A stretch of DNA of 64,000 nucleotides from Candidatus Deferrimicrobiaceae bacterium (GCA_036504035.1 DASXVV010000006.1:270133-334132); one strand, 5' to 3'; shown: positions 45,101-57,600, numbered from the stretch's first letter. Notes: generated by a model from the letters alone, not told the origin. Translations and numbers: made by a program.

Positions 45101-45317
45101 ACCGGCGCGCCCCCTGCTTCCTTGAGGGACTGTTCGAATTTCGGCCTTCGATCGCCGAGTTGACGACCGGGGTCAGGACGTCGCGGCCGGGGAGCCCGGG
45201 GTTCGGTGCCGCGTTCCCGAGAAACCTTATCCCGGTTAACCCCCCTTGTCCGCCCGTTTTGGCGACGTCCGGAGTCCGCTCCCACGTACTGGCACAATTG
45301 TTGACCTCCCGTCGGGG

Positions 45318-45419
45318 AACCCAACCCGAAGGAGGTCGCACCATGCGGCTGCATTATGTCCTGAACCACGGCGGTACCCCCGAATCCAAGCTCGCCGACG
45401 TCGAAATTCATTTTGAAGA
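45318..45419 (+). repeat. Direct repeat copy 1 (102 nt, identical to 57213-57314): left boundary of the ~12-kb island
   Basis: aacccaacccgaaggaggtcgcaccATGcggctgcattatgtcctgaaccacggcggtacccccgaatccaagctcgccgacgtcgaaattcattttgaaga. Contains a GAAGGAGG Shine-Dalgarno site and 26 codons. Confidence 0.9.
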
Positions 45420-45423
45420 CTAG
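45343..45423 (+). pseudogene. Truncated 5' copy (26 codons, then D and a stop) of the SpoVG-like gene found intact at 57238-57600
   Basis: MRLHYVLNHGGTPESKLADVEIHFED*, identical to the first 26 codons of the downstream full-length gene. Confidence 0.7.
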
Positions 45424-46309
45424 CCATTCCTTCTGCGTGTTGGTGGCCAGTTCCGGAAACCAGCGATTCTGTTCATAACCCGCCGCGCCCAACGCCAGAA
45501 CCCACAAAAAGCAGCGCCAATACTGGGCTTGCTGTTCGCAACTTATTTTGTACAACTCATAGCTGCCGGCGTCGGATGATGGTTCTGGGGTGCTCCTGTT
45601 ATATCTGCTAAAAGTGGGTGTAGCGACCGCTCACTGGTGAACCATCCGGCGGGAACGGGAAGGAGCGACAGACCCGGCCTTCTTTCCGTTTATTTACTGC
45701 GTATTCCGCCCCAATTCGGCCACCATTCAGAGGCCAAATCGGCCACTGTTTTCACCCCAAACTGCTTATTCCGTACCAAACTGACCAGGGGATAAGTCCC
45801 CTTGGAAGGCCCAAGCGCGCCGCAGAGACCTCGCCTTCGGCCGTGCCACACTTCAGCTATCGGAATCGTTTGTCACCTGTCACTTCGGGTAGGCGCCAAG
45901 TATCGAGATGATTGCGAGACTTCCTTGCGACCGGCGAGGAAATGATGGCAGAAGGAGATGTTGCCGTCGAAAAGGATTGACACCTTCTATTGTGACCTGA
46001 TAGCGTCCCTGCGACTCTACAGTTAATTGCTGTCGCCGCCGCTTTGACTCATTCGTTGTCGTCCCAATCTTGTGCCGTTTGTCGTGCGCTTGCCAGGCCA
46101 ACGAGAGGAGAAGTGCGGGGAAGCTGCTCGCGCATAAATCCGCCATTCTCATGTTGAATGCCGTTTCCTCCCCTTCGATTTCCGAAACTCAATCGAGAAT
46201 TTCTATCCCGACCGTATCGGATCTCAGAGATGGGAAATACCCTTTTTCTTCATGGGTCATTCCGCCTCGGAGAGACCGATTACGAATTGCCGGGGAAAGG
46301 ATCAAGAGG

Positions 46310-49300
46310 ATGCCTGTAAGAAAGATCGCCGGGTTGCTGTTCCTGCACATGCTGACCTTGTGGATGATTGCCGGAGCAACCTATGGGGGCAATCGGTCAT
46401 TGCCCAACTGCCCCGGTATTAGTACTGCCAGGTCGATCAGCGACTGCAGGGCATGCCACGATTCTCTTGCGGCGCAAAACGCCGCTGCCAATCCGTTCAC
46501 GCCGTTGAAAAGTGCCGCTCAGATGTCAGTATCATCCGAACAGCCCTTATTGCCCCTCAAATACACGCAATACACGACTTCCCCAGATGGAAAGATGATC
46601 ATAAATTATCCAATAAGTGCATATAAAAACAACGCGTTCAATGTAAACATGACACTAAAAGGGTATGATTGCATGTTACTCGTTGGTGATTTAGTGTTGG
46701 ACCCTGTTACAAGAAGGCCATTCATAGATCCATCAACTGGTGGAACTGTAATTAATCAATGGTTGTATTCTACTTCTATTCAGCCATGGTATCCGTCAAC
46801 AGTTAACAACATAACAATTCCTGTAATTTATTCAACCGAAGGCCATCATGGATTTATCGCCAAATATTTCTATTACCCTAATAGGTGGGGCGATGGTTTC
46901 AATTATGTTTTGGCTGGAGGCCGAGAACAGTACTGGGAAACCATCATCACTGATCCGCTCTATTGCGATCTGGCCATCGCAACCCTCACGGCCAATAATC
47001 GCACAGACAACACGACGATCAATACGTCGGCGGGTGACAACGTTACTTTCAACGCCTTGATCACGTCGGCCACCTATGCATCCACTCCCGGTAACGTCAC
47101 CTGGAATCTCGTGCTGACCAAACAGGCGGGCGGCGCCGTCGTCAAAAGCTGGTCGGGAACGGGATTGAACCTGGGCACCATCGTCTGGAACGGCGTATGC
47201 GACGACCATGCTCTGGCCCCTGCGGCGAGCTATATCGCCACGCTTACGGCCAATACGCCCGACAACTGCAGCGCGGTCAGCACTGTGAAGGTCAATGTCG
47301 TGAACGATGAGACTTGCCCCATACGTGCACCATTCGGTTCCACAGCCAACATTGCCTCCGGGAGCCTATCGCACACGCAGGAGCTGTTTTCCGTCCGAGG
47401 CGGTGCTTTGCCGGCCTCTTTTGCGCTTACCTACAACAGTTTCGACGGTTCTTCCTTCCCCCTTGGGAAAGGCTGGACGCACAGTTACAACGTCTCTCTC
47501 GCCGCGTCCGGCGTCGATGCTTACACCCTGACGGAAGGGGACGGAAGCCAGACGCTTCTTCTCCTAAATCCCGGCGACAATATCTATCATCCCCGAACTG
47601 CCTACTACCCGTATCTGGTGGCGGCCGACAATGCCTCCGAGATTTATCTCAAGGACGGCGGGAGCTATCTCTTCGACGGTAACGGGAAATTCATCCGGAT
47701 CGAGGACAAGAACGGCAACGGCGTAAATTTGACATACGATCCGGCCTACGGAGATCTGACCGCCATCACCGATCCTGCCGGACGGGTGACCACGCTGAAC
47801 TACAACAGCGACAACCGCCTCGCCCACGTGATCGCGCCTGGCGGCCGGGTCTTTGCGTTCGAATACGACGATGCGTTCCGTGATCATTTGCAGCGGATTG
47901 TGGCACCCGACAACAGCGCCTCGACGTTTATCTATGACCCCACGTGGGGACGGATGCAAACCAGGACCGATCCGCTCAATAACACGACCACGTACCAGTA
48001 CGACGATCAGGGGCGGGTCAATTATTCCCTCGATCCCGAAGGAGGCGAGAAGCGGATCGTCTACGATTCCGCGTCGGCCATTTCTACCGTGACGGAAAAG
48101 GACGGCGGTGTCTGGTACTGGCGGTACGACCGGCTCGGGGGAACACTCCTGCAAAAGCAGGATCCTGACGGAAAGAGCCAGTGGAACGTCTACGACGATT
48201 TCCGGAATCTGACTTCATCGACCGATCCGGACGGTGGCGTGACGAACTACACCTACGACGACCTCGGCGACACGCTCACTGCGACCGATCCGATGGAGAG
48301 CACTACCACCTACACCTACGACAATTTCGGCCGGATGACGAGCAGCACTGATCCGGCCAACAACACCACGCAGTTTTTCTACGATGCTCATGGCAACCTG
48401 ACTGATACGACCGACCCGACGGGTGCTACGACTCACAGCGACTATAACGCGAATGGGTACGTCCTCCGGACGGTCGATCCGCAAGGGCGCATCACCTCGT
48501 ATACCTACGATCCGATTGGGAATGTCGCGAGCGCGACCGATAACGCCACGGGCAACACGATTGGGTTCGTCTACGACAACAACGGCAATCTGCTCCAGCG
48601 CACCGACGCCAACGGGGCGGTCACGACCTATGTCTACGACGGCAACGCCCGCCTGAAGTCCGTCACCGATCCGCTGGGGCATAAAACGTCGTACGGCTAC
48701 GACGCCAACGGCAACAGGATTTCGGAGACCGACGCCAACGGAAAAATCATCACCTTCGAATACGATTCGAAGGGGCACCTGACAAAGACGATCAATCCGT
48801 TGGGAGGCATCACGGTCAACAGCTACGGTGGGAGCGGCTGCTCCTCCTGCGGGGGCGGCAAAGACCGGCTTATGGAGGTCACGGATCCGGCCGGGCGCAC
48901 GACGCGCTACGAGTACGACCTGCTCGGTCGCAAGACGAAAGTCACCGATCCTGCCGGGGCTTTTTCGACCTACACGTACGACGCCCGCGGGAATCTGGCG
49001 ACGGCGACCGACAACAACGGGCACACGATGCAGTATTTCTACGATCCTTCCTCCCGGCTTTATGCGCAGGTTGATGCGCGGGGCGGGCTAACCTGGTTCG
49101 ACTTCACGCCTGCGGGCCAAACCGACAACGTGTTCGACGCCAACGGGAACCGCACGCACTACGCTTACGACAACACGGGGAAACTGTCCCGCACCGCTTC
49201 CCCCGACACGGGGTCGACGACCAACCTTTACAACCTTGACGGCACGCTCCATTCTCGAATCGACGCCAATGGGACGACGATCACTTATACCTACGACACA

Positions 49301-56970: not shown

Positions 56971-57202
56971 CTTCCTCCTTTCTGGCCAGAATTTGCTTCC
57001 CACCTCAATTTTATCGAAGACGATAATTCCCTGCTGGCCGCCGACTACACGTTTCAGGGCTGGTCCGGTTAGCGGGCAAACTCTACGCCTCCGGTGGCCG
57101 GGAAGCCTACCGAATCGCCGTCGACTCCCGGAAGCGCGCCTTTCCGGGCTTGCCAGATCACCCGGTCCGACCTCCGCCGCCGTTCGGCACGGATGTTGAC
57201 AC

Positions 57203-57237
57203 ACCTTAGGACAACCCAACCCGAAGGAGGTCGCACC
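57203..57237 (+). promoter_or_regulatory. Putative promoter and Shine-Dalgarno region of the SpoVG-like gene, partly contained in the direct repeat
   Basis: TTGACA -35-like hexamer at ~57205, with a TTGACc counterpart at ~45301 in copy 1. GAAGGAGG lies 8 nt before the ATG. Confidence 0.35.
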
Positions 57238-57314
57238 ATGCGGCTGCATTATGTCCTGAACCACGGCGGTACCCCCGAATCCAAGCTCGCCGACGTCGAA
57301 ATTCATTTTGAAGA
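57213..57314 (+). repeat. Direct repeat copy 2 (102 nt): right boundary of the island
   Basis: Identical to 45318-45419. Partial similarity continues upstream (57045-57212 vs 45030-45317). Confidence 0.9.
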
Positions 57315-57600
57315 AGGGCTCCTCGCGGGCCTCAAGCTGGTCGGCTGCTCGGTCTGGCGGTCGAAAAAGGGAGAGGCGCCCACGGTGCTCGTCCCGTCGC
57401 GCTCTTATGCCACGGCGGGCGGCATCCGCTACTTCGAGCTGTTGCGCCCGTCCGAGGAGGGCGCCGGCCCCAACGACCCCGCCGCCCGGATCCAGATCCG
57501 CAAGTTCAAGGACTATATCAAGGACGAATTCCAGCGGATCGAGGCGCTCCCCGCCGAACCCCCGAAAGAGGAAAAACGCTCGAAAGCTTCGGCGGGCTGA
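57238..57600 (+). CDS. SpoVG-like small protein (120 aa), divergent
   Basis: MRLHYVLNHGGTPESKLADVEIHFEEGLLAGLKLVGCSVWRSKKGEAPTVLVPSRSYATAGGIRYFELLRPSEE... matches the SpoVG pattern (x-D-V-x-[IL]...hhVhDhKVI.G..GLFVAMPS[KR]R...G.FRDIAHP). The assignment is tentative. Confidence 0.45.
   Translation: MRLHYVLNHGGTPESKLADVEIHFEEGLLAGLKLVGCSVWRSKKGEAPTVLVPSRSYATAGGIRYFELLRPSEEGAGPNDPAARIQIRKFKDYIKDEFQRIEALPAEPPKEEKRSKASAG

What the first reader, a model, noticed from the sequence alone, without database searches (positions are those of the whole stretch)
45293..57320. ~12-kb genomic island bounded by a perfect 102-nt direct repeat that duplicates the promoter, SD and first 26 codons of a SpoVG-like gene
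The 102-nt block 45318-45419 is identical to 57213-57314. Weaker similarity extends ~170 nt further upstream on both sides (TTGAC -35-like hexamer; a degenerate copy of the 3' end of the 65-aa gene 44903-45100 recurs at ~57027-57140). Copy 1 terminates after 26 codons (..IHFED*); copy 2 continues into an intact 120-aa SpoVG-like gene. The bounded segment holds:
- a long noncoding leader
- the RHS toxin and its immunity-like gene
- two PKD-repeat secreted proteins
- a small Cys-rich ORF
- a frameshifted mobile-element-like pseudogene
GC content inside is mosaic. A 5'-gene-fragment duplication flanking cargo looks like an insertion scar: an attL/attR-like pair or a duplication generated on integration. 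The integration machinery itself appears decayed. This is the largest candidate horizontally acquired module in the window.
Basis: seen in the sequence. Interest (0 to 1): 0.85.

Follow-up and report, generated by a model that had tools for sequence, protein, structure and literature searches.

The report
Decayed cargo transposon with recombination-made flanking repeat
An 11.9-kb block carrying an RHS toxin system really was inserted into an uncultured Deferrimicrobiaceae chromosome, but it is a worn-out cargo transposon of an IS1-like family, and its 102-base flanking repeat most likely comes from homologous exchange rather than from an integrase attachment site.

Summary
45318-45419 and 57213-57314 are identical over 102 nt and occur only twice in the window. 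An independent k=31 assembly breaks exactly 30 nt into the repeat on both sides. A ~96%-identical relative (L004) has the predicted empty site: 65-aa gene, native spacer, intact 120-aa gene, PriA. So 11,895 bp were inserted.

- There is no integrase.
- The first base after the left repeat (45420) starts a terminal inverted repeat, CTAGCC...TGTTG. This repeat is typical of a ~590-aa transposase family that has no Pfam model and is distantly IS1-like.
- A badly decayed gene of that family lies at the other end of the island (55963-56968, minus strand) and reads inward. The cargo lies on the opposite strand. An intact 6.5-kb relative has the same layout.
- Beyond the transposase end lies a hitch-hiking fragment of another lineage's 65-aa gene, a short spacer, and then the repeat.

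The duplication therefore runs from codon 36 of the 65-aa gene to codon 26 of the 120-aa gene. It is diverged except for its last 102 nt. The best reading is two transposase-made junctions plus one homologous exchange.

'SpoVG-like' and 'duplicates the promoter' are not supported. This is an ordinary kind of element with an instructive history.

The parts
44903..45100 (+). Native, intact 65-aa gene of a conserved hypothetical family in Deferrimicrobiaceae
   Evidence: 98% nt identity to the empty-site contig L004. Family alignment. No Pfam or NCBIfam match.
45101..45317 (+). Native spacer upstream of the 120-aa gene, with a -35-like TTGACC at 45301-45306, outside the identical block
   Evidence: Collinear with L004 at 86% identity. 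No sigma-70 consensus site.
45318..45419 (+). Left copy of the 102-nt perfect direct repeat: 25-nt leader with AGGAGG (45330-45335), ATG at 45343, then 77 nt of coding sequence
   Evidence: 97% identity to L004, 88% to L005, 82% to L056 and 76-81% to other relatives.
45343..45423 (+). Truncated 26-codon stub of the 120-aa gene; its TAG stop codon lies inside the transposon end (CTAGCC)
45420..45444 (+). Terminal inverted repeat of the transposon, at the end distal to the transposase gene and reading inward: CTAGCCATTCCTTCTGCGTGTTGGT
   Evidence: It matches the family motif CWAGCC..T...T.....TGTTG with 0 mismatches. It is the only hit in the 64-kb window even with up to 2 mismatches allowed. 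17/25 identical to the end of the P0003 element. A stricter 15-position consensus gives 3 mismatches. The motif is absent from the 55 related chromosomal loci.
45445..46309 (+). Non-coding leader between the transposon end and the RHS gene (GC 0.54)
   Evidence: No Rfam hit. No called gene in the source record. No similarity to related loci.
46310..51004 (+). RHS/YD-repeat polymorphic toxin: DUF6531, 17 RHS repeats, RHS core, then a low-GC C-terminal domain with no known family. An upstream TTG at 46070 is an alternative start.
50967..51962 (+). 331-aa gene overlapping the end of the RHS gene; presumed immunity protein by position only
   Evidence: No Pfam, NCBIfam or PADLOC match. GC 0.36.
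52092..54911 (+). 939-aa secreted protein: signal-like N-terminus, two YD repeats, then at least six PKD domains
54950..55753 (+). 267-aa PKD-domain protein
55963..56968 (-). Remnant of the transposase gene of an IS1-like family. It keeps the equivalents of residues ~1-42 and ~216-491 of a 596-aa homologue. It has at least 3 frameshifts, an internal ~170-aa deletion (the Zn-finger/HTH part) and no C-terminal ~105 aa.
56969..57056 (-). 5' leader of the transposase gene and the expected position of the proximal transposon end. Only a degenerate candidate is seen (reverse complement of 57034-57063, CCAGCCCTGAAACGTGTAG...).
   Evidence: In intact relatives the end lies 80-85 nt upstream of the start codon. 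The candidate is not statistically significant.
57057..57149 (+). Foreign 3' fragment (from codon 36) of a 65-aa gene orthologue, pseudogenised by a 1-nt deletion; host-like GC
   Evidence: Its residues are closest to the L056-type allele.
57150..57212 (+). Short foreign spacer with a -35-like TTGACA (57196-57201), now upstream of the intact 120-aa gene
57213..57314 (+). Right copy of the 102-nt repeat
57238..57600 (+). Intact 120-aa gene of a conserved, unnamed family of Deferrimicrobiaceae; not demonstrably SpoVG
57631..59874 (-). PriA helicase gene, the native right flank

Best explanation
The island is a decayed, cargo-carrying transposon of a family that Pfam and NCBIfam do not model and that is distantly related to IS1. 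It spans about 45420-57056. Its cargo is an RHS toxin, a presumed immunity gene and two PKD proteins.

Shown:
1. The segment is absent from a close relative.
2. Its left end is a family-type terminal inverted repeat, joined to codon 26 of the 120-aa gene.
3. A wrecked transposase gene of the same family lies at the right end and reads inward, with the cargo on the opposite strand. An intact 6.5-kb relative has this layout.
4. Directly outside that end lies a diverged fragment of another lineage's 65-aa gene plus spacer. It is in register with the native copy and is followed by the 102-nt block.

Inferred history:
1. The transposon first sat in codon 36 of the 65-aa gene of a related lineage, so that gene's 3' part travelled with it.
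2. Its other end was later joined by the transposase to codon 26/27 of the 120-aa gene. This happened in one of two ways. One is replicative transposition between homologous chromosomes. The other is formation of a circle holding the transposon plus 279 nt of adjacent DNA, which then recombined with a transposon-free chromosome inside the only stretch of perfect identity.
3. Either route gives native flank, repeat, transposon, foreign fragment, repeat, rest of gene. It leaves both small genes intact.

Consequences (inferred): the 102-nt repeat is a by-product, not a recombinase site. The element can no longer transpose. RecA could still delete it precisely between the repeats. The native promoter region now points into the RHS operon, and the intact 120-aa gene is read from the imported upstream region.
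For: - Empty site: L004 is collinear with the left flank through the repeat and with the right flank from the repeat onward.
- Family of the pseudogene: 49 homologues of ~590 aa.
- The family is a real mobile element. One member is a 1,963-bp insertion sequence with 25-bp inverted repeats and a 9-bp target duplication, found in several contexts.
- Another member is a 6,512-bp element with inverted repeats matching 22/25. It holds the transposase gene plus four passenger genes on the opposite strand.
- Sub-threshold but consistent hits to the IS1 transposase model.
- The inverted-repeat motif hits the window once, at 45420, the first base after the repeat, in the expected orientation. It gives no hit in the 55 related chromosomal loci.
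- The two flanks share no 9-bp duplication, as expected after replicative or recombinational rearrangement (PMC7986276).
- The foreign fragment is homologous to the 65-aa family from codon 36 onward and has host-like GC of 0.667, against 0.557 for the island.
- Relatives whose 65-aa gene is 77-84% identical to the window's are only 82-88% identical over the 102 nt. Perfect identity of the two copies therefore means both derive from this lineage.
- No integrase or recombinase domain in any island ORF.
Against: - The transposase-proximal inverted repeat cannot be recognised with confidence. The right boundary rests on the start of the 65-aa homology and on the 80-85-nt distance seen in relatives.
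- The motif was chosen after seeing the sequence. The stricter consensus leaves three mismatches, and three other sites in the window also reach that level. One of these is native, conserved PriA coding sequence.
- A weak inverted-repeat-like match at 45509-45531 on the minus strand allows the left end to be a separate miniature remnant rather than the far end of one 11.6-kb element.
- The donor lineage with the foreign allele was not found. No circular junction was found either, but that collection does not even return the window's own contig.
- Why the foreign fragment meets lineage-identical sequence exactly at the left edge of the 102 nt needs an extra assumption. It could be an earlier recombination endpoint in the conserved ribosome-binding/start region, or a conspecific donor with a divergent upstream allele.
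- Whether this family transposes replicatively is unknown.
Confidence: 0.6

Rival explanations
1. The island is a site-specific integrative element. The 102-nt repeats are attL and attR. The element brings its own promoter and 5' end to rebuild the target gene, and its integrase has been lost or acts in trans.
For: A perfect direct repeat flanks foreign DNA, the target gene is rebuilt, and an empty site exists.
Against: - No recombinase gene or fragment is present.
- The left repeat abuts a transposon inverted repeat to the base.
- Diverged, in-register homology continues past the identical block into a 65-aa gene fragment.
- None of 55 relatives uses this site.
- If the element's copy came from the lineage that gave the foreign fragment, it would be expected to differ at roughly 12-18 of the 102 positions, judging from relatives of similar distance.
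Confidence: 0.08
2. Two independent insertions of the same transposon occurred in close relatives, one in codon 26 of the 120-aa gene and one in codon 36 of a 65-aa allele. Unequal homologous crossover inside the 11.6-kb transposon then joined the left flank of one to the right flank of the other.
For: It gives the same two transposase-made junctions, the missing target duplication and the duplicated interval. It needs no replicative transposition.
Against: - It needs two separate hits within about 430 nt. Yet the one family member whose target sites could be read inserts in terminator hairpins, not in coding sequence.
- Both parents must carry identical 102-nt blocks but 28%-diverged upstream alleles.
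- The present data cannot separate it from the main model.
Confidence: 0.2
3. An old tandem duplication of the 65-aa/120-aa gene pair diverged. It was then interrupted by the island, and gene conversion made the two 5' ends of the 120-aa gene identical.
For: The duplicated interval is longer than 102 nt and is mostly diverged.
Against: - All four members of this clade other than the window, and about 50 more distant relatives, have a single pair.
- The empty-site relative is about 96% identical in the flanks.
- Conversion between 102-nt tracts that would have been only about 80-88% identical, stopping exactly at the edge of divergence, is unlikely.
Confidence: 0.05
4. The arrangement is an assembly chimera: a repeat-induced misjoin in a metagenome contig.
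For: The source is a metagenome-assembled contig of 1.16 Mb.
Against: A second assembly has unitigs that break exactly k-1 bases into the repeat from both the native and the island side. Its island unitig has exactly the predicted length. The junction sequences themselves are unique.
Confidence: 0.02

Closest known systems
IS1 family and IS1595 family insertion sequences, including their longer members with passenger genes (from my own knowledge of ISfinder classification)
   Same: - An N-terminal Zn-binding/HTH region matches the NCBIfam IS1 transposase and IS1/IS1595 Zn models.
- The target duplication is 9 bp.
- There are terminal inverted repeats of about 25 bp.
- Some members carry passenger genes.
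   Different: - The proteins are ~590 aa, about 2-3 times the length of the IS1 transposase.
- The IS1 hits are far below the curated cut-off (45 bits against 100).
- There is no Pfam match at all.
- The ends start CWAGCC rather than the GG... that I recall for IS1.
- The catalytic region was not matched to any DDE model here.
IS26/IS6-family translocatable units and IS1-based circles: one insertion sequence plus adjacent DNA, formed by intramolecular replicative transposition and re-inserted by recombination (PMC7986276)
   Same: The inferred intermediate is one transposon copy plus 279 nt of neighbouring chromosome. Flanking target repeats are lost, and incorporation goes through homology (for the published mechanism; for the structure here).
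   Different: This is a different transposase family. The proposed re-insertion uses 102 nt of chromosomal homology rather than a resident IS copy. Nothing about the mechanism was tested here.
Complex class 1 integrons with ISCR1, where a circle carrying captured DNA plus part of the 3' conserved segment recombines with an integron and leaves that segment duplicated (own knowledge)
   Same: A direct repeat of host-type sequence flanks the mobile element and its cargo, made by homologous rather than site-specific recombination.
   Different: ISCR elements use a rolling-circle HUH transposase and lack inverted repeats. Here inverted repeats and a 9-bp target duplication point to a DDE-type element.
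RHS/YD-repeat polymorphic toxin loci
   Same: DUF6531, RHS repeats, an RHS core, and then a low-GC variable C-terminal domain followed by a small low-GC gene.
   Different: The toxin and the presumed immunity protein match no known family. No PAAR or VgrG partner was detected in the island ORFs that were scanned. Carriage inside an IS1-like transposon is not the usual context.
SpoVG
   Same: It is a small protein with predicted N-terminal beta strands and a C-terminal helix.
   Different: There is no Pfam hit even at E<=10. A profile search found no PDB sequence. hhalign probability against a SpoVG sequence recalled from memory is 1.2%. The model is of low confidence (pLDDT 56) and has no fold match.

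Membership tests
Genomic island / insertion relative to an empty site | A related genome in which the two flanks are contiguous | tested here: met
   L004 holds the 65-aa gene, the native spacer, the 120-aa gene and PriA. It is 96-98% identical in the genes.
Genomic island / insertion relative to an empty site | Composition different from the host | tested here: met
   GC is 0.557 against 0.66 in the flanks, and 0.36 in the toxin/immunity part.
Site-specific integrative element (attL/attR) | Encodes, or sits next to, a tyrosine or serine recombinase | tested here: not met
   No such domain in any island ORF.
Site-specific integrative element (attL/attR) | The direct repeats are the only homology between the junctions, and the element ends lie within them | tested here: not met
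   In-register homology continues about 150 nt further at ~72%. A transposon inverted repeat starts at the first base after the left repeat.
Site-specific integrative element (attL/attR) | Recurrent use of the same site by related elements | tested here: not met
   0 of 55 related loci carry an insertion in the 120-aa gene.
Transposon of the ~590-aa IS1-like family | Transposase gene of the family at one end, reading inward | tested here: met
   A pseudogene at 55963-56968 on the minus strand; E=1.7e-65 to P0001 using the frame-corrected (stitched) translation as the query.
Transposon of the ~590-aa IS1-like family | Terminal inverted repeats of type CWAGCC...TGTTG at both ends | tested here: inconclusive
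   The distal end is met at 45420-45444. The proximal end is only a degenerate candidate and is not significant.
Transposon of the ~590-aa IS1-like family | 9-bp target-site duplication | tested here: not met
   The flanks are TTTTGAAGA and TCCGGTTAG. This is expected if the flanks come from two different insertion sites. The intact 6.5-kb relative also lacks a target duplication in both contexts seen.
Transposon of the ~590-aa IS1-like family | Passenger genes between the ends, on the strand opposite the transposase gene | tested here: met
   The window has the RHS gene, the 331-aa gene and two PKD genes on the + strand. The P0009 element has four passenger genes arranged the same way.
IS1 family (for the transposase family as a whole) | Match to the curated IS1 transposase model above its cut-off | tested here: not met
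   Best score is 45.4 bits against a cut-off of 100, and it covers only the Zn/HTH part.
IS1 family (for the transposase family as a whole) | DDE catalytic domain | not tested
   No Pfam or NCBIfam model matched the C-terminal two thirds. No structure was predicted for it.
RHS polymorphic toxin system | RHS/YD repeats plus the RHS core, followed by a variable C-terminal domain | tested here: met
   PF05593 in 17 stretches; PF03527 at residues 1384-1414 of the long ORF that starts at 46070; then about 160 aa with no family match.
RHS polymorphic toxin system | Cognate immunity protein neutralises the toxin | not testable with these tools
   Supported only by position and shared low GC.
SpoVG | Sequence or fold match to the SpoVG domain | tested here: not met

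The most novel reading that the evidence does not exclude
The ~590-aa proteins define an undescribed branch of the IS1/IS1595 superfamily. Its members range from 2-kb insertion sequences that insert in terminator hairpins to transposons above 10 kb that ferry weapon or defence cargo: an RHS toxin here, and an MmeI-like restriction gene and an M48 peptidase set elsewhere. They would move replicatively between homologous chromosomes and so create gene-restoring flank duplications like the one seen here.
Probability: 0.2. Interest if true: 0.5.

Novelty: new member of a known kind. Interest (0 to 1): 0.32.

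Why it matters
A perfect long direct repeat that rebuilds a gene's 5' end looks like an integrase attachment site. 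Here it is more likely a by-product of transposition plus homologous exchange, so such repeats alone should not be used to call integrative elements. The case also documents a transposase family that Pfam and NCBIfam do not model. That family carries multi-gene cargo, including an RHS toxin system, in the little-studied phylum Deferrimicrobiota. Neither point overturns current understanding.

Tried and rejected
Searches that found nothing:
- Rfam on 44-58 kb gave no match. The only tRNA gene in the window, tRNA-Ala at 59977-60052, lies outside the island and is not at either junction.
- A scan of metagenome contigs for an excised circle junction (foreign fragment, 102 nt, transposon end) gave 0 hits. 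A scan for the transposon end alone also gave 0 hits. The collection does not return the window's own contig, so both nulls are weak.
- Searches for the donor lineage of the foreign 65-aa fragment found nothing useful: blastn against 55 related loci, a word-index protein search, and an exhaustive HMMER search that returned one irrelevant 308-aa hit.
- Toxin and immunity identification failed in Pfam, PDB sequences and PADLOC.
- An exact-protein look-up of the 267-aa PKD protein failed twice; neither the literal translation nor a version beginning with M is on record.

Ideas tested and rejected:
- SpoVG tests were all negative: Pfam at E<=10, a PDB profile search, hhalign, and an AlphaFold model (pLDDT 56) with Foldseek.
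- Local alignment of the two island ends as inverted repeats was not significant; 26% of random windows score as well.
- An inverted-repeat-like site at 59790-59812 is conserved PriA coding sequence in all relatives, so it is a chance match.
- The long minus-strand ORFs 45058-45555 and 56341-57306 have no Pfam match. They are not in the source record's gene calls and overlap better-supported features.
- A single transposition with a giant (~430-nt) target duplication cannot be right. One part of the duplication is 28% diverged while the rest is identical.
- A cointegrate resolved downstream of codon 26 would leave a foreign-type 102-nt block, so it is also rejected.

Full report
**Observation.** The two 102-nt blocks 45318-45419 and 57213-57314 are identical. 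They cannot be extended by one base on either side, and they are the only copies in the window. Weaker similarity, in register, continues upstream. It is 92% over 129 nt when the block is included. It is 72% over 75 nt between 45008-45082 and 57057-57131, which is the 3' part of the 65-aa gene. The left copy ends a 26-codon stub (..IHFED*). The right copy opens an intact 120-aa ORF.

The window comes from a 1.16-Mb JGI metagenome contig. An independent Logan assembly of SRR11794808 supports the repeat. It has one contig identical to the left flank that stops at 45347, exactly 30 nt into the repeat. It has another contig of 11,853 bp whose end shows the foreign fragment followed by the first 30 nt of the repeat. 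11,853 equals 11,793 unique bases plus 2 x 30, which is what a k=31 graph must give. The repeat is real and is not a misjoin.

**Empty site.** Looking up the exact 65-aa protein returned a 1,516-bp contig from another sample (L004). In it the 65-aa gene is followed by the same spacer, a complete 120-aa gene and the end of priA. L004 aligns with the window's left flank up to and through the repeat, and with the right flank from the repeat onward. Identities are 98% for the 65-aa gene, 86% for the spacer, 97% for the 102 nt, 96% for the rest of the gene and 96% for priA. So 11,895 bp are an insertion relative to a close relative.

A scan of species-representative genomes gave 55 loci, nearly all labelled Deferrimicrobiaceae or 'Deltaproteobacteria' (taxonomy). 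None has RHS or transposase sequence within 10 kb of this gene. GC is 0.557 in the island against 0.66 in both flanks. It falls to 0.36 over the toxin tip and the next gene.

**Contents**.
- An RHS protein with DUF6531, 17 RHS repeats and an RHS core. Its ~160-aa C-terminal domain matches nothing in Pfam or among PDB sequences.
- An overlapping 331-aa gene with no match, presumed to encode immunity from its position only.
- A 939-aa protein with two YD repeats and at least six PKD domains.
- A 267-aa PKD protein.
- No recombinase domain anywhere.

**The pseudogene.** On the minus strand, from a good Shine-Dalgarno sequence and an ATG at 56968, three reading frames can be stitched into one protein. 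That protein finds 49 proteins of ~590 aa with no Pfam domain, some of them called 'transposase-like' by JGI. Compared with full-length members, the window keeps only the equivalents of residues ~1-42 and ~216-491. The Zn-finger/HTH part and the last ~105 residues are gone. Intact members give consistent but sub-threshold hits to NCBIfam's IS1 transposase and IS1/IS1595 Zn-binding models. They give none in Pfam.

**The family is a real mobile element.**
- The gene for P0005 lies in a 1,963-bp unit with 25-bp terminal inverted repeats (CAAGCCGGTCGGTTAATCTGTTGA). The unit sits in several different contexts. One of them shows a clean 9-bp target duplication inside a terminator hairpin.
- The gene for P0009 lies in a 6,512-bp unit bounded by inverted repeats that match 22/25. 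The transposase gene starts 80 nt from one end, and four passenger genes lie on the opposite strand.
- The P0003 gene has an end reading CTAGCCGTTCACTTAAGGTGTTGG 82 nt upstream of its ATG. It abuts an MmeI-like restriction gene.

**The left junction is a transposon end.** The first bases after the left repeat are CTAGCCATTCCTTCTGCGTGTTGG. The motif shared by the family ends, CWAGCC..T...T.....TGTTG, matches the 64-kb window only once, even with two mismatches allowed. That match is at 45420-45442 on the + strand, with no mismatch. It is 17/25 identical to the P0003 end. The motif gives no hit in the 55 related chromosomal loci.

I chose that motif after seeing the sequence. A stricter 15-position consensus leaves three mismatches at 45420, and three other sites in the window reach the same level. 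One of them, in priA, is conserved coding sequence in all relatives and so is a chance match. What makes 45420 convincing is that the position and the orientation were fixed beforehand by the repeat boundary. In addition, the matching transposase remnant sits at the far end, reading inward, with the cargo on the other strand, exactly as in the 6.5-kb relative. The stop codon of the truncated stub is the TAG of this end.

**The right junction.** In relatives the proximal end lies 80-85 nt upstream of the start codon. That would be near 57050 here. Only a degenerate candidate is visible there, and it is not statistically significant.

Homology to the 65-aa family starts at about 57057. An alignment of eleven family members shows that the fragment matches from Gly36 onward (GLVRLAGKLYASGGREAYRIAVDSR...). 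It lacks the conserved residues before that point. It carries a 1-nt deletion near its end and is closest to the allele of relative L056. Its GC (0.667) is that of a chromosome of this group, not of the island.

The island-borne sequence to the right of the transposase is therefore a piece of another lineage's chromosome. It comprises the 3' part of that lineage's 65-aa gene and a short spacer with a TTGACA, followed in register by the 102 nt.

**What the repeat is.** The duplicated interval runs from codon 36 of the 65-aa gene to codon 26 of the 120-aa gene. That is 430 nt on the left and 258 nt on the right. It is diverged, with indels, except in its last 102 nt.

Conservation does not explain the perfect identity. 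Relatives whose 65-aa gene is 84% and 77% identical to the window's are only 88% and 82% identical over the 102 nt. Both copies must therefore be of this lineage's own type.

The two flanks share no 9-bp duplication. Two transposase-made junctions at different target sites, plus a duplicated interval between them, is the signature of one of three processes:
- replicative transposition between homologous chromosomes;
- a circle holding one element plus adjacent DNA that re-enters by homologous recombination;
- unequal crossover between two copies.

The first two are textbook outcomes for IS6 and IS1 elements (PMC7986276). I favour these routes. The third cannot be excluded. All three leave both small genes intact, which may be why this arrangement survived.

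One extra assumption is needed. The foreign fragment must have met lineage-type sequence at the left edge of the block. This could be because an earlier import ended in the conserved ribosome-binding/start region. It could also be because the donor was a conspecific with a divergent upstream allele.

**What is not supported.**
- An integrase att pair. There is no recombinase, a transposon end sits at the junction, homology extends beyond the block, and no relative reuses the site.
- 'SpoVG-like'. The tests gave no Pfam hit at E<=10, no PDB sequence hit with a 32-sequence profile, 1.2% hhalign probability against a SpoVG sequence recalled from memory, and a low-confidence model without fold matches. 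The gene belongs to a strongly conserved, unnamed family of this phylum.
- 'Duplicates the promoter'. The TTGAC hexamers lie outside the identical block, and no sigma-70 consensus site is found.

**Consequences (inferred).**
- The element cannot move by itself any more.
- The 102-nt repeats allow precise RecA-dependent loss.
- The native upstream region of the 120-aa gene now faces the RHS operon.
- The intact 120-aa gene depends on the imported upstream region.

**Verdict.** The element is an ordinary kind of thing: a decayed cargo transposon carrying a polymorphic toxin locus. It belongs to a poorly catalogued IS1-like family. The flanking repeat has an instructive origin in recombination, not in an integrase.

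Noticed in passing
window 57238-57600 compared with loci L006-L055: In about 50 related genomes the gene order is priA(+), 120-aa gene(+), [65-aa gene(-)], ATC-hydrolase(+), AP-endonuclease-like(+). In the window, L004, L005 and L056 the 120-aa gene alone is inverted relative to its neighbours. This points to an old small inversion at the same locus.
   Followed up: partly
L005 8673-10000: The nearest species-level relative has a 1.1-kb insert between the 65-aa and 120-aa genes. The insert holds a 347-aa minus-strand ORF rich in CxxCH motifs. The spacer upstream of the 120-aa gene is a variable spot in several lineages.
   Followed up: partly
L067-L071 (P0005 element): A 1,963-bp insertion sequence of the same transposase family sits inside rho-independent-terminator-like hairpins with a 9-bp target duplication. 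This suggests a preference for hairpin targets.
   Followed up: partly
L075 9921-16432; L073 2919-7791: Family members carry cargo. One is a 6.5-kb element with an M48 peptidase/Sel1 protein and three small genes. In another, the transposase gene ends 8 nt from a 248-aa gene that is followed by an MmeI-like restriction-modification gene.
   Followed up: partly
L056 end, L058 end, L050 start: Several MAG contigs break inside the first ~50 codons of the 120-aa gene. L050 and L058, from one MAG assembled at k=141, overlap by about 140 nt (codons 6-52). This hints at alternative upstream contexts in those populations too.
   Followed up: no
window 45509-45531 (-): A weak match to the family end motif (CAAGCC..., 3 mismatches) lies about 110 nt inside the left end, in the inverted orientation. 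The first 112 nt could be a miniature remnant with both ends. The match is not significant on its own.
   Followed up: no
window 50500-51962: The RHS C-terminal domain (after ..ETDVTGL) and the 331-aa gene have 36% GC and no match in Pfam or PADLOC (the 331-aa gene also none in NCBIfam; the C-terminal domain none among PDB sequences). This may be an uncharacterised toxin/immunity pair.
   Followed up: partly
window 46500-46999: GC drops to 0.42 within the N-terminal, pre-DUF6531 part of the RHS gene. The N-terminal domain may also have been swapped in.
   Followed up: no
window 59790-59812 (-): This sequence is 18/23 identical to a family transposon end but is conserved PriA coding sequence (the ..DKPFTYRVP.. 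motif) in all relatives, so it is a chance match.
   Followed up: yes
Metagenome-contig collection: An exact 27-nt string from the window returned no contig, not even the JGI contig the window comes from. Null results from that collection are therefore weak for this sample.
   Followed up: no
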